A DNA stretch of 62,954 nt, filler included, from Octopus bimaculoides (lineage: Eukaryota), in the NCBI RefSeq assembly GCF_001194135.2. It is 5 parts of 5 records of this genome, joined end to end, with 100 filler letters (N's around TTAATTAATTAA, not from the genome) between each part and the next. Parts side by side here need not be neighbours in the genome. Positions count along the whole stretch, not along the records: positions 1 to 26,900 come from NC_068996.1; positions 27,001 to 35,216 come from NC_069002.1; positions 35,317 to 40,600 come from NC_068981.1; positions 40,701 to 52,187 come from NC_068989.1; positions 52,288 to 62,954 come from NC_069006.1. One strand, written 5' to 3'. A model generated the notes under the pieces. The model worked only from the letters and a program-made list of their open reading frames with translations. It was not told the origin of the DNA and ran no database searches. Below are positions 7,655 through 61,313 of the stretch, in pieces (position 1 is the stretch's first letter; the number at the start of each line of letters is the position of its first letter). The position numbers were made by a program, and so were the translations under genes.

Positions 7655-7753
7655 TATTGATAGGCAGGACAACAAAAGAAAGAAGGAGACCTCGATATTA
7701 TGCAAATAGAGGAATTTATCTGTAAAAATATGTGGCACTCATTCAGTAGCCAT

Positions 7754-7814
7754 GATAAAACTCCGAGTTTCGGATGCCAGGGTGGGAGCCCACACCAACA
7801 TCTCTTCAGTTATC
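7754..7814 (-). ncRNA. Type I hammerhead ribozyme motif, core intact
   Basis: GATAA-CTGAAGA-GATGTTGG..GTGGG CT CCCAC..CTGGCATC-C-GAAA-CTC G GAG-TT-TTATC: stem I GATAA/TTATC, long stem II with one bulged C, palindromic stem III, GUU cleavage triplet. Confidence 0.75.
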
Positions 7815-7848
7815 CGGGCAATAAATGAAGAGATTCAGTTATTGGCCA

Positions 7849-7909
7849 GATAACTGAAGAGATGTTGGCGTGGGCTCCCACCCTGGCATCCAAAACTCAG
7901 AGTTTTATC
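7849..7909 (+). ncRNA. Hammerhead motif, probably inactivated
   Basis: Mirror of 7754-7814, but CGAAAC has become CAAAAC (G12 to A). Confidence 0.65.
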
Positions 7910-7941
7910 ATGGCTACCGAATAAGTGTCACATATTTTTAC

Positions 7942-7980
<39 letters not shown>

Positions 7981-8059
7981 NNNNNNNNNNNNNNNNNNNN
8001 NNNNNNNNNNNNNNNNNNNNNNNNNNNNNNNNNNNNNNNNNNNNNNNNNNNNNNNNNNN

Positions 8060-8248
8060 CCCACATTTGAAAGGTTTACAAAAAGAAAAAGAAACAACAT
8101 TTATGAAAAATTTATTTTACTGTTATTAAACAAAGGGTTACAGTTTTTGTTCATTAGCTAAATGAAAACATCATTGGCACTTGCATAAGTTCATTAGCAA
8201 CACATAGGGGGAAGTTTGAAATGTGGGAGGTATTTCTGTCGCACCCTG
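8060..8248 (+). mobile_element. Tc1/maT-type transposon 3' end
   Basis: Ends GCACCCTG|TA (CAGGGTG-type TIR with TA target); starts at a gap with CACATTTGAA (HFE-like end of transposase). Confidence 0.45.
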
Positions 8249-8261
8249 TATATATATATTC

Positions 8262-56815: not shown

Positions 56816-57546
56816 TTGGATTATTATTATTATTATCATTTTGTTAGAATAATTAATTAAAATCCTGATTTAGAAATTGTAGACAAATAGGCTACAGGCC
56901 AGAAGTAATTCCATCTGATGCTGTCGTCTGCAAAGGCCACAGGTCTACCGTCTTGCATGCCATTGAAGAATATTTTTAGCTGTTGTAATACACACAGGGG
57001 ACAGTGACAAACACCATCTTGATTTCAGTGGAAACAGAAGCACATGTCATGTCACTTATGTGGTTAAGTACAGTGTGGTGGTGGTGGTGGTGGTAGTGGT
57101 GATAGCTGGTGACGTGGGTTAGTTGCTGTGAAGTGTGAAGCGGTGATAGTCGTGGTTGGTGTCTCTTCAAAGTTATTGCAAAGTTGTCACAGATATTGTA
57201 TTCATATGTAATAAACAGTTCTTTGTTGTTGTGGCGGTGGTGATGGTGGTGGTGGGTGTGAAAGCCCTATGTTTGTCTAAATAAATGTTTGTAGGTTTCT
57301 GTATATTTTTATATATATATATGTATTTTTTTAAAATCTCACTTTCTGTTTGGCTGAAAGAGTTGCTAGTTCATCGTCATGGCTTCTTCATGTTATCATG
57401 GCTAGNNNNNNNNNNNNNNNNNNNNNNNNNNNNNNNNNNNNNNNNNNNNNNNNNNNNNNNNNNNNNNNNNNNNNNNNNNNNNNNNNNNNNNNNNNNNNNN
57501 NNNNNNNNNNNNNNNNNNNNNNNNNNNNNNNNNNNNNNNNNNNNNT

Positions 57547-59085
57547 GGCAAGTAGTTTCCTTCTCAACCACATGGTCATGGTTTCAGTTCCACTCCATAG
57601 CACCCTGGGTAAATGTTTTCAACTGTAGCCTCAAGCCAACCAAAGCTTTGTGAGTGGATTTGGTAGATGGAAACTGAAAGAAGCCTGTCGTGTATGTATG
57701 TATGTATGTGAGTGTGTGTTTATTCCTTACCACTGCTTGACAACTGGTGTAGGTTTGTTTATGCCTCTGTAACTTAGCAGTTTGGCAAAAGAAACTGATA
57801 GAATAAGTACGAGACTTTAAAGGGTAAAAATAAGTCCTGGGTTCAATTTGTTCAACTAAAACCCTTCAAGGCTGTGCTCCAGGATGGCCGCTATCCAATG
57901 ACTGAAGCAAGTAACAGATAGAAGATAAGATAAAGATGTTGATATGTTTTTGCATATCATCTTCTTTTATCATTGTTTTATCTCACTTACTGATGCTTGG
58001 ATGAAGTAGTTGCTAGCTTCTATTGTCACGGTTTCTTCATTTGTTGAAGCTAGACAGAAGAAAGAAGAAACAAATCCCAACGAATTAATGAAAAATAGTT
58101 TGTGTATGCAATATGCAAAGCTCTGTCTACAGGTTGGATGGAATTGAAAAAACGGTGTTGTTAAAAATATGGCAGAGGCGTGGCTGTGTGGTAAGAAACT
58201 TGCTTCTGGTAAGAAACTTGCTTTCTGGTAAGAAACTTGCTTTCTGGTAAGAAACTTGCTTCCCAACCACATGGTCCCGGGTTCAGTCCCACTGTGGAAC
58301 CTTGGGCAAGCGTCTTCTGCTGTAGCCTNNNNNNNNNNNNNNNNNNNNNNNNNNNNNNNNNNNNNNNNNNNNNNNNNNNNNNNNNNNNNNNNNNNNNNNN
58401 NNNNNNNNNNNNNNNNNNNNNNNNNNNNNNNNNNNNNNNNNNNNNNNNNNNNNNNNNNNNNNNNNNNNNNNNNNNNNNNNNNNNNNNNNNNNNNNNNNNN
58501 NNNNNNNNNNNNNNNNNNNNNNNNNNNNNNNNNNNNNNNNNNNNNNNNNNNNNNNNNNNNNNNNNNNNNNNNNNNNNNNNNNNNNNNNNNNNNNNNNNNN
58601 NNNNNNNNNNNNNNNNNNNNNNNNNNNNNNNNNNNNNNNNNNNNNNNNNNNNNNNNNNNNNNNNNNNNNNNNNNNNNNNNNNNNNNNNNNNNNNNNNNNN
58701 NNNNNNNNNNNNNNNNNNNNNNNNNNNNNNNNNNNNNNNNNNNNNNNNNNNNNNNNNNNNNNNNNNNNNNNNNNNNNNNNNNNNNNNNNNNNNNNNNNNN
58801 NNNNNNNNNNNNNNNNNNNNNNNNNNNNNNNNNNNNNNNNNNNNNNNNNNNNNNNNNNNNNNNNNNNNNNNNNNNNNNNNNNNNNNNNNNNNNNNNNNNN
58901 NNNNNNNNNNNNNNNNNNNNNNNNNNNNNNNNNNNNNNNNNNNNNNNNNNNNNNNNNNNNNNNNNNNNNNNNNNNNNNNNNNNNNNNACTGTGTGGTAAG
59001 AAGCTTATTTCCCAACCACATGGTTCTGGGATCAGTCTCACTGCGTGGCACCTTGGGCAAGTGTCTTCTACTATAGCCTCAGCCT
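57547..59085 (+). mobile_element. Cluster of SINE family A copies
   Basis: Copies at ~57547-57900, ~58172-58328 (head 19-mer GGTAAGAAACTTGCTTTCT repeated about four times) and ~58988-59085. Confidence 0.75.
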
Positions 59086-59727
59086 GTATATATATATATA
59101 TATGAGATTTCTTTGACTGAAAGTGTCGCTCCAGCTGGCCACAGTCAAATATCAGTAAACAAATCTAGATGTAGTCTTTTCTATAGTCAGAGTAGCAGAG
59201 CCTGATCAGTCAATCAATATAATGTTGTGATGGATGGCTTAACCTAGATTTAGGATTCTCGCATGGCCAAGACACCACAGGTTTTCCCTTCCCAGCTCAA
59301 GCTGGAGCACGGCCTTGAAGTGTTTTAGTTAAATGAATTGACCCCCAGGACTTATTTTTTCCTTTAGAGCGTCATATTTATTTTATCAGATTATTTTGCC
59401 AAACTAAGTTACAGACATAAACAAACCAACACCAGTTGTCAAGCAGTGGTAGGGAATAAGCTCACACGCACACACACACACACACATACACATACATACA
59501 CGACAGGCTTCTTTCAGTTTCCATCTACTGAATCCATTCACAAAGCTTTGGTTAGCCTGAGGCTATAGTTGAAGACATTTGCCCAAGGTGCCATGGAGTG
59601 GAACTGAACCCAGGACCATGTGGTTGGGAAGGAAACTATTTGCCACACAGATGCTTTTTAGGTTTTCTGGTGTGTTTTTTTTTTAATCTCATCATGACAA
59701 CATGAAGCTAGCAACTCTTTCAACTGA

Positions 59728-60050
59728 AGGGATGGTAAAAGGCCTGATGGTAGGCCTCTCATCTGGGATGCCACCTTCTCCAATGGCAACTTGGTGTGTT
59801 TAGCTGCCAGCTCAGGTTCTGCTGCTTGTCAAGCTGAGAAGGGTAAATTGTTAAAGTACTGGCTGTTTGATGTCAAGCCTGTGGCAGTAGAAACCTCCAG
59901 CATCATCGGCCCCTTGATTGCATCCCTGCTCACTACTTTTGGGGTGGAGATGGCTATCCACAAGGGGGAAGCCCTGCAAGTTAGAGTCACTGTTCCAGCA
60001 CACCATCTTTGCCATTCTCCAAGGCAACACTTTTTCCATTTTGTCCGCTG
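59728..60050 (+). mobile_element. CRE-type non-LTR retrotransposon relic: restriction-like endonuclease domain
   Basis: RDGKRPDG-RPLIWDAT...SGSAACQAEKGKLLKY...PVAVET; second frame LFQHTIFAILQGNTFSIL, matching the R..PD..D..E..K..Y..E RLE pattern and the 'QRLSVAIQRGNA' tail. Confidence 0.75.
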
Positions 60051-60924
60051 GAGCCATGAGACAAACTGATAACACTTTTCAGATATTATTTGTTGCTTTC
60101 TGTTGATATGATGTCTCTGTTGTGTAATAAATTTTTATTTTGTAAAGTATATTAAATAATAAAATGGTACAATGAAAGATTTTGATCAATGCCATGCCAT
60201 TCTTTGTTTCATGTGACTTGTTGTTTAGCCAAAGTCAGCTTCTCTCATTAGCTTGCAGTAATTATTGTTGCTTAGGTCCGTAGTGTGTTGTAGTATCATG
60301 GTAGTGTGAGGGTACCATGGTAAGCATTCGGCAGTCCCAAACATTGCTTAGCCATTTTGATGCCAACCCACTTGAGACCACTTCCACAGGTTCTATGATG
60401 CAAACCTTCCTGTTTTAAAGTGATCTAAATTAAAGCTTCCTCTGAAATTTAATATTAATGTTTCAAACAGCCACTTTGGTAATGAGTTATTTTACAAAAT
60501 TCTTCATTATTTTTACAATTAATTGAAACAGAGGAGGCATATTTCAAAAGGAATATTCTAACAAAAAACTCAAAATGATATAAAAAGTATCATTGAAATT
60601 TTGTTTTAATTTTTTTAAAACACTCACTTTAATAATGGAAAAATTATTTTATTATTAGATTCTTTATTTTTTTCAAAACGTAATTGAAACAAAGGCAGTG
60701 TAATTCTACAGAAACATGGTAACAAAAGGGTTAAAATGATGTAAATTAAAACCTTCCATCAAAATTTCATGTTTATGTTCCAAACACCAGCTTAATAACG
60801 GCAAAGTTATTTTACTAAATTCTTCATTAATTTCAAAATTAAGTGACACAAAGACAGTGTAATTCAACAAAAATATAACAAAAGGGTTAAACTGCTTTCA
60901 CCTGTTACCTTAGTAACTATTCTT

Positions 60925-60967
<43 letters not shown>

Positions 60968-61275
60968 GGTACGGTTGCTGTAACTGTTCTTTTCACCTTC
61001 ATCTCTGAAAATACAAGAAATTGTATGTAAATAACACCTTTCAAACTGTGTGTGTTAGTGTGGTACCTAGGTATTTATAGGTGTACACTCAGGTGCACTT
61101 TGGTACCTAGCTGCACTTCAAAGTTTTAAACATATAATTCAAGGTTTCAGAAAATGCATTCTATTTCTTGAGCTTCTTAAAAAAGTGAATTTCAATAATG
61201 GTAAATAAAACAAGGTAAGCAAAATGAAAATAAAGGTGGAGAGCTTCTTTCAGTCAAAAAGAAAGAATTAATTAA

Positions 61276-61313
61276 TCCTTTATATTTCGGGTGACCCACT
61301 CATCTTCAGAGGA
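61276..61313 (-). ncRNA. Decayed minimal hammerhead motif
   Basis: TCCT-CTGAAGA-T-GAGTG GGT CACCC-GAAA-TA-TA-A-AGGA; GAAATATA is consistent with double CpG decay of GAAACGTA. Confidence 0.45.

What the first reader, a model, noticed from the sequence alone, without database searches (positions are those of the whole stretch)
7729..61313. Dispersed set of about ten minimal type I hammerhead ribozymes with palindromic (dimer-type) stem III
Seen: CUGANGA...GAAA...NUH motifs with closing stem I at 7754(-), 7849(+), 10436(-), 12690-12841 (pair), 26016(-), 30288(+), 34467(-), 49693(-), 51516(-) and 61276(-). Their stem sequences differ, so several families are involved. Stem III is usually self-complementary with a 0-4 nt loop (ACTC-G-GAGT, ATCA-AG-TGAT, ACCATGGT, A[C/T]GT). 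Established: Penelope-like elements and retrozymes carry such minimal HHRs, which cleave as dimers. Inference: these are termini of diverse PLE or retrozyme-like families, mostly detached from any ORF.
Basis: partly seen in the sequence, partly recalled or inferred. Interest (0 to 1): 0.75.

Follow-up and report, generated by a model that had tools for sequence, protein, structure and literature searches.

The report
Penelope retroelement hammerheads in an octopus
The scattered self-cutting-RNA (hammerhead) motifs are real and are worn stumps of about ten common jumping-gene families of a known kind, probably in an octopus; cutting is untested, and the one oddity is a family whose DNA-cutting enzyme carries a long asparagine/serine-rich insert in its core.

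Summary
The motifs are real. Six of the eleven named pass a strict type I hammerhead descriptor (shuffles: mean 0.1, 0 of 200 reach six); five are damaged; one further family (9489+) was missed. Each site belongs to a different genome-wide repeat family. Four (A, D, H, I) are 3' ends of Hydra-clade Penelope-like elements (PLEs): in longer copies the endonuclease gene lies just upstream. Three (B, C, J) are ORF-less head-to-tail units of about 520, 365 and 475 nt with PLE-type insertion scars, i.e. retrozyme-like passengers. Three (E, F, G) stay unassigned. Stems covary among 19 family-D copies. No RNA read ends pile up at four cleavage sites; cutting is untested. PLE hammerheads, an octopus Hydra family and asparagine-rich PLE inserts are all in print, and this scan found similar hammerhead repeats before on other DNA of this genome. 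The least ordinary point: family D's GIY-YIG endonuclease has 113-314 codons of Asn/Ser/Thr-rich sequence between its GIY and YIG strands (13-18 in public relatives), a position I did not find in print. Verdict: new members of a known kind.

The parts
7719..7830 (-). Family A stump, inverted 5' copy; intact hammerhead, C3 7809, H17 7759 (bounds approximate)
7843..7944 (+). Family A stump (Hydra PLE 3' end) running into (AT)n; hammerhead C3 7854, H17 7904, A at G12
   Evidence: partial tandem HHR-ORF-HHR in L023
9283..9740 (+).
10300..10545 (-). Family F stump; minimal hammerhead C3 10466, H17 10440, 4-nt stem III segment; no partner ORF found (bounds approximate)
12658..12767 (-). Family H inverted copy; core intact (C3 12762), stem I 5' arm cut off, U16.1 changed
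12755..12921 (+). Family H direct copy (Hydra PLE 3' end); core broken, A at G12
25985..26379 (-). Family I stump (Hydra PLE 3' end); hammerhead C3 26092, H17 26018, A at G12, 2-bp proximal stem I then internal loop and distal stem
30186..30260 (-).
30280..30440 (+). Family E stump; hammerhead C3 30294, H17 30323; no partner ORF shown
34299..34635 (-). Family C, ORF-less unit of about 365 nt (326 nt present); hammerhead C3 34519, H17 34472
34682..34773 (+). Family C inverted 5' piece
49655..49860 (-). Family D 3' end; hammerhead C3 49748, H17 49698, then AT-rich junction
49842..50149 (-). Family D endonuclease, YIG half and C-terminus (frameshifted relic)
50150..50931 (-). Asn/Ser/Thr-rich insert between GIY and YIG strands (Tyr-to-Tyr 803 nt, frameshifted in this copy)
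50932..51243 (-). Family D 5'-truncated ORF: RT thumb end, CxCX5C linker (51012-50983), GIY half (50955-50932)
51267..51663 (-). Family B, ORF-less unit of about 520 nt (385 nt present); hammerhead C3 51583, H17 51521, U-U at the base of stem II
51667..51702 (+). Family B inverted 5' piece
61256..61329 (-). Family G, old decayed minimal hammerhead, C3 61309; first stem I pair broken

Best explanation
The motifs are hammerhead-bearing stumps of about ten separate repeat families, four of them the 3' ends of Hydra-clade Penelope-like retroelements and three of them ORF-less head-to-tail units likely copied by the same enzymes. Shown: each family has a fairly fixed 3' end 85-330 nt past the ribozyme, ragged 5' ends, frequent inverted 5' copies and microsatellite junctions. 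Inferred from published PLE work: a tandem (or circular) transcript is reverse-transcribed from an internal site just 3' of the hammerhead, the endonuclease nicks AT-rich DNA, and most cDNAs stop early, so the hammerhead, lying next to the start of reverse transcription, survives in most insertions while the ORF rarely does. In source elements the short palindromic stem III would favour a double hammerhead from two tandem copies that cuts the transcript into unit lengths; lone copies like these would cut poorly and are decaying, often at CpG sites.
For: 6 strict hits vs 0.1 shuffled. Every tested site is a genome-wide family (first-look candidates, not copy numbers: A 2303, B 1297, C 64, D 1150, E 150, F 3029, G 7, H 354, I 1594, J 867). 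Hydra-type endonuclease upstream on the same strand in D 12 of 30, I 4 of 20, H 2 of 16 loci and a HHR-ORF-HHR partial tandem for A in 1 of 30 (L023). Inverted 5' copies: A 8/30, B 20/30, C 22/30, D 11/30, E 18/30, H 11/16, I 8/20. Head-to-tail junctions: B period 517-523 in 5 of 30, C 346-402 in 13 of 30, J in 3 of 15; longest stop-free frame 64-92 aa in 7 B and C units. 19 D-clade hammerheads: 89.9% of cells paired, 22 cells with double changes (0 of 500 shuffles), slid controls 30-48% paired. The dimeric active fold is below two monomeric active folds in 7 of 9 window copies. The layout matches the Hydra hammerhead table of PMC8557442 File S2.
Against: No cleavage data. In three RNA-seq runs (about 6% of each read, unstranded, species identity with the window not established) no begin/end pile-up lies at H17 of A, D or B. 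The minimum-energy fold was the active fold in none of the 9 dimers. E, F and G have no contiguous ORF; F has an inverted copy in only 1 of 30 and G in 2 of 7. The number of covarying pairs alone (7) is not beyond shuffles (50 of 500), and the control ignores relatedness. Loci are the best-scoring 7-30 per family and include the window's copy. No autonomous partner was identified for B, C or J.
Confidence: 0.9

Rival explanations
1. All sites are classical non-LTR retrozymes: tandem units expressed as circular RNAs.
For: B, C and J are ORF-less head-to-tail units of 365-520 nt with a type I hammerhead, near the 150-450 bp range in PMC7229834.
Against: A, D, H, I continue upstream into PLE coding sequence. 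Two direct hammerheads at unit distance occur in only 1 of 30 B and 2 of 30 C loci, never more than two within 1.5 kb. Circular folding z-scores of five units were -3.2, -1.4, -0.8, 0.2, -0.9; two more were spoiled by microsatellite. No circular RNA shown.
Confidence: 0.05
2. The copies have been kept by the host as regulatory self-cleaving RNAs.
For: Non-CpG substitutions are fewer in the core than in the 3' flank in 8 of 9 families, e.g. C 15/270 vs 57/360, I 3/200 vs 21/240. Family sequences occur in RNA reads.
Against: 5 of 11 named window motifs are damaged; whole core intact in only 40-77% of top copies of A-F and I, 1 of 20 for H; changes are mostly CpG decay. The core excess is equally explained by selection on several source elements and by search bias.
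Confidence: 0.03
3. Chance matches to a short degenerate motif in AT-rich DNA.
For: No Rfam match; descriptor chosen after seeing the sites; G is weak.
Against: 0 of 200 shuffles reach the count; family majorities pair better than window copies; compensatory changes in D.
Confidence: 0.02

Closest known systems
Hydra-clade PLEs and their hammerheads, incl. Hydra-1_Obim (Craig et al. 2021, PMC8557442; section 11, passages, supplement Files S1, S2, Fig. S7 text read)
   Same: CxCX5C linker, no Cys pair inside the GIY-YIG core, C-terminal endonuclease, hammerhead after it, (TA)n junctions, 4-bp stem III with 1-2 nt loop, U-U next to stem II in many. Loci L231 and L214 read like Hydra-1_Obim, including its short Asn/Ser-rich loop.
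   Different: Five family motifs searched were absent from the supplement and one matched only a coral family, so these look like unlisted families. Family D has 113-314 codons between GIY and YIG where Hydra-1_Obim has about 27. B, C, J have no ORF.
Minimal PLE hammerheads (Cervera and de la Pena 2014, PMC4209133; parts 1-2 of 4 read)
   Same: Thousands of dispersed single motifs per genome in many families, opposite-strand pairs 100-700 bp apart, extra nucleotide before stem II, palindromic 15.2-16.2; cleavage weak and dimer-dependent in vitro.
   Different: Only F and G are minimal; the others have a 3-5 bp stem III. G10.1-C11.1 is replaced in B, D, J.
Metazoan non-LTR retrozymes (PMC7229834, part 2 of 6 read; bioRxiv 10.64898/2026.07.22.740005, part 1 and passages read)
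   Same: ORF-less head-to-tail units with a type I hammerhead (B, C, J); proposed PLE origin.
   Different: Here units are monomers or under two units, carry PLE-type inverted 5' copies, fold weakly as circles; circular RNA not shown.
Asparagine-rich inserts in Adineta vaga Penelope ORFs (Arkhipova et al. 2013, PMC3846280; passages read)
   Same: Long in-frame Asn-rich low-complexity insert of variable length, arising where short (AAY)n runs existed.
   Different: There between RT and EN or RT core and thumb; here inside the GIY-YIG core, in another clade, Ser- and Thr-rich as well.

Membership tests
Type I hammerhead, PLE type | CUGANGA, GAAA and UH core | tested here: met
   6 window copies intact; family majorities intact for A-F and I; G and H majorities decayed
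Type I hammerhead, PLE type | Stem I closes the motif; stems I-III pair and covary | tested here: met
   Different paired stems in 9 families; D clade 22 double-changed cells, 0 of 500 shuffles
Type I hammerhead, PLE type | Short self-complementary stem III | tested here: met
   4-10 nt self-complementary segments
Type I hammerhead, PLE type | G10.1-C11.1 pair | tested here: inconclusive
   Present in A, C, F, H, I; U-U in B and J, U-G in D; U-U also in published Hydra hammerheads
Type I hammerhead, PLE type | Self-cleavage at H17, better as dimer | not testable with these tools
   Energies only; no read-end pile-ups in RNA-seq
Hydra-clade PLE (A, D, H, I) | C-terminal GIY-YIG endonuclease after RT, hammerhead downstream | tested here: met
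   model of L218 matches I-TevI (Z 7.2, rmsd 2.5, 83 aligned), T4 EndoII and UvrC as top three
Hydra-clade PLE (A, D, H, I) | CxCX5C linker and no CCHH cysteines in the core | tested here: met
   A (L023), D (window 51012-50983), I (L292, L300); for H only the endonuclease C-terminal part was seen
Hydra-clade PLE (A, D, H, I) | Insertion into (TA)n | tested here: inconclusive
   (TA)4+ or an assembly gap at the 3' end: A 19/30, D 15/30, H 7/16, I 12/20; no background rate computed in a microsatellite-rich genome
Hydra-clade PLE (A, D, H, I) | N-terminal RWK and DKT motifs; placement in an RT tree | not tested
   No full-length copy recovered; no tree built
Non-LTR retrozyme (B, C, J) | ORF-less unit of a few hundred nt joined head to tail | tested here: met
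   B (520) and J (475) exceed the 150-450 bp quoted
Non-LTR retrozyme (B, C, J) | Tandem repeats with two or more complete hammerheads | tested here: inconclusive
   1 of 30 B, 2 of 30 C loci; only top loci seen, assembly gapped at repeats
Non-LTR retrozyme (B, C, J) | Highly self-paired circular fold | tested here: inconclusive
   z -3.2 to 0.2 in five decayed units
Non-LTR retrozyme (B, C, J) | Expressed as circular RNA | not tested
   Reads were laid on a less-than-unit copy of B only

The most novel reading that the evidence does not exclude
Family D is a lineage of Hydra PLEs that kept spreading while a translated Asn/Ser/Thr-rich loop of 110-310 residues grew inside the beta-hairpin that carries the GIY and YIG motifs of its endonuclease, starting from the short Asn-rich loop seen in Hydra-1_Obim; and B, C, J are mini-elements caught between PLE and retrozyme, whose more-than-unit insertions record reverse transcription around a circular RNA.
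Probability: 0.5. Interest if true: 0.5.

Novelty: new member of a known kind. Interest (0 to 1): 0.3.

Why it matters
For the finding as given, little: it adds about ten families to a well-described class. Two side results are usable. Family D offers a natural series of insert lengths to ask how much a GIY-YIG core tolerates and how PLEs gain low-complexity coding sequence. B, C and J are small, abundant test cases for the open questions of whether retrozymes are PLE passengers and whether the PLE template is a circle, given that hammerhead cleavage was dispensable for insertion in vitro (PMC11167929).

Tried and rejected
Rfam: no hammerhead match. Pfam: nothing significant for six window frames and nothing for the three insert-bearing frames, while three public relatives match GIY-YIG. 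My first descriptor was faulty and was rewritten. I first read D as Nematis-clade; the CxCX5C linker and likeness to Hydra-1_Obim replaced that. ORF pieces downstream of E (L142, L127, L136, L132) and C (L081) were read and rejected as separate insertions. B directly upstream of D's ORF is not its 5' pLTR: the ribozymes differ and B's unit closes on itself. Motif-only matches at 19637+, 22467-, 24494+, 28821+ fail the descriptor. No tRNA gene in the window. Run search: no RNA holder listed. Foldseek against PDB and the sequence search of PDB gave nothing. Family G was mis-parsed in the energy comparison. The C count was wrong and redone. Lunse et al. (PLE hammerhead dimers) could not be read; I know it only from a review passage. 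Not-in-print claim for the insert rests on paper searches, the PMC8557442 supplement and scan look-ups; subscription papers, Repbase and bioRxiv supplements were not visible.
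Full report
Setting. The window is five joined stretches from a 2.34-Gb genome; four were placed on contigs C16, C22, C9 and C26, the third was not searched. It is AT-rich and full of microsatellites. The organism is probably an octopus: loci L231 and L214 read almost like the published family Hydra-1_Obim in protein and hammerhead.

Observation. A strict type I hammerhead descriptor finds six sites (C3 at 7809-, 10466-, 30294+, 34519-, 49748-, 51583-) against means of 0.105 and 0.125 in two sets of 200 dinucleotide shuffles, none reaching six. 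Five other named motifs are damaged (7854+, 26092-, both of the 12.7-kb pair, 61309-). Two were missed: 9489+ and an inverted copy near 30254-. The outer flanks of fetched loci gave 5 strict hits in 235,659 bases (shuffled mean 0.33), 0.21 per 10 kb, against 1.05 per 10 kb in the window: such motifs are common genome-wide and this window is about five times richer than that sample, which I cannot explain beyond PLE clustering or how packs were chosen. Rfam does not detect them.

Families. Each site searched is a separate repeat family (7-30 best loci fetched each). Family majorities have different, paired stems I and self-complementary stem III segments of 4-10 nt; the whole core is intact in A 21/30, B 19/30, C 12/30, D 17/30, E 18/30, F 23/30, G 1/7, H 1/20, I 12/20. 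In 19 D-clade hammerheads found through the protein rather than the RNA, 89.9% of cells pair and 22 cells show changes on both sides (0 of 500 shuffles), in all three stems; the count of covarying pairs (7) is not beyond shuffles and the control ignores relatedness. Folding energies put the double hammerhead below two single active folds in 7 of 9 window copies, but inactive folds are lower still.

Anatomy. 3' ends are fairly fixed (about 95 nt past C3 in A, 85 in D, 125 in I, 150 in F and H, 215-260 in C, 240-330 in B) and 5' ends ragged. The 3' part recurs inverted just upstream in 8/30 A, 20/30 B, 22/30 C, 11/30 D, 18/30 E, 11/16 H, 8/20 I, but 1/30 F and 2/7 G. 5' truncation, partial tandems and an inverted 5' copy are the described PLE signature.

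PLE ends. A profile of 120 public relatives places an endonuclease upstream on the same strand in 12 of 30 D, 4 of 20 I and 2 of 16 H loci; L023 is a hammerhead-ORF-hammerhead partial tandem of A. The CxCX5C linker and the lack of core cysteines match the Hydra clade; an earlier scan note pointed me to that clade. E, F and G have no contiguous ORF; E resembles a coral Hydra hammerhead, F resembles one found 1.1 kb upstream of a Neptune-type endonuclease in L261.

ORF-less units. In B the 3' end joins the 5' part with period 517-523 in 5 of 30 loci, in C 346-402 in 13 of 30, in J in 3 of 15. Seven B and C units have no frame over 92 codons and fold as circles only weakly better than shuffles. 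They carry PLE scars, so they are likely passengers of PLE enzymes, as a 2026 preprint argues for retrozymes in general. They rarely reach two full hammerheads, so filing them as retrozymes is not proven.

Family D insert. In the window, GIY (50955) and YIG (50149) halves lie 803 nt apart. Of 43 distinct loci, 36 had both halves: 34 with 113-314 codons between the two tyrosines, 2 with about 27; 112 of 120 public relatives have 13-18. Eight inserts are in frame without a stop (Asn 16-27%, Ser 17-25%), but six of these come from 20 loci I picked for long open frames, and only 13 of 31 gap-free inserts are a multiple of three, near chance for decayed copies. The Asn/Ser/Thr-richest frame is in register with YIG in 29 of 34 and with GIY in 22 of 34 (14 and 8 of 17 unselected). 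A model of L218 has confident strands on both sides of a low-confidence insert and matches three GIY-YIG nucleases best (Z 7.2, 6.3, 5.4); the alignment drives this, so it locates the insert but does not show activity. Published Hydra-1_Obim has a short Asn/Ser-rich stretch at this spot, and rotifer PLEs have long Asn-rich inserts elsewhere in the ORF. D copies could also have been moved in trans by insert-free relatives.

Expression. Three RNA-seq runs hold reads of A, B and D at low depth in both directions, with no pile-up of ends at H17. The same blank was reported for an active lizard PLE, whose hammerhead was dispensable for insertion in vitro.

Mechanism and verdict. Shown: motif, families, anatomy, link to Hydra ORFs, head-to-tail units, insert. 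Inferred: internal start of reverse transcription just 3' of the hammerhead with early termination, dimer-assisted cutting of tandem transcripts, trans-mobilisation of B, C, J. Untested: cleavage, circles, activity of the insert-bearing endonuclease. Dispersed PLE hammerheads are known, one octopus Hydra hammerhead is tabulated, and seven earlier scan notes describe hammerhead repeats elsewhere in this genome. New members of a known kind; interest 0.3.

Noticed in passing
window 41500-42977 (+): Neptune-type PLE relic, RT to GIY-YIG, with stops (clade label from motif likeness to rows). My descriptor found no hammerhead downstream in any of 30 loci of this endonuclease although the 3' tail is shared by about 15: a variant or lost ribozyme is possible.
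   Followed up: partly
window 38149-39023 (-): Second Neptune-type endonuclease relic.
   Followed up: no
window 49505-49663 (-) and 9013-9252 (+): Further Hydra-type ORF fragments, one directly after D's 3' end and one upstream of J, so PLE pieces pile up next to each other.
   Followed up: partly
window 7690-7945, RNA runs X21-X23: Many A>G and T>C differences at 10-40% in RNA reads over the inverted family A pair, rare in DNA contigs of another organism label: possible A-to-I editing of fold-back transcripts, or species differences.
   Followed up: no
window 50611-50642 and 50844-50864: [quoted passage not shown]
   Followed up: no
window 26018-26092 (-), family I: Stem I is 2 bp, an internal loop, then a long distal stem, with a branched 54-nt stem II, unlike the other families.
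   Followed up: partly
window 49060-49330 (-) and 59728-60069 (+): Short frames that look like restriction-like endonuclease pieces of LINE-type elements (label recalled; no Pfam support).
   Followed up: no
L211, L219, L237, L220, L205: Further unrelated hammerhead families in fetched flanks, so the genome holds many more than ten.
   Followed up: no
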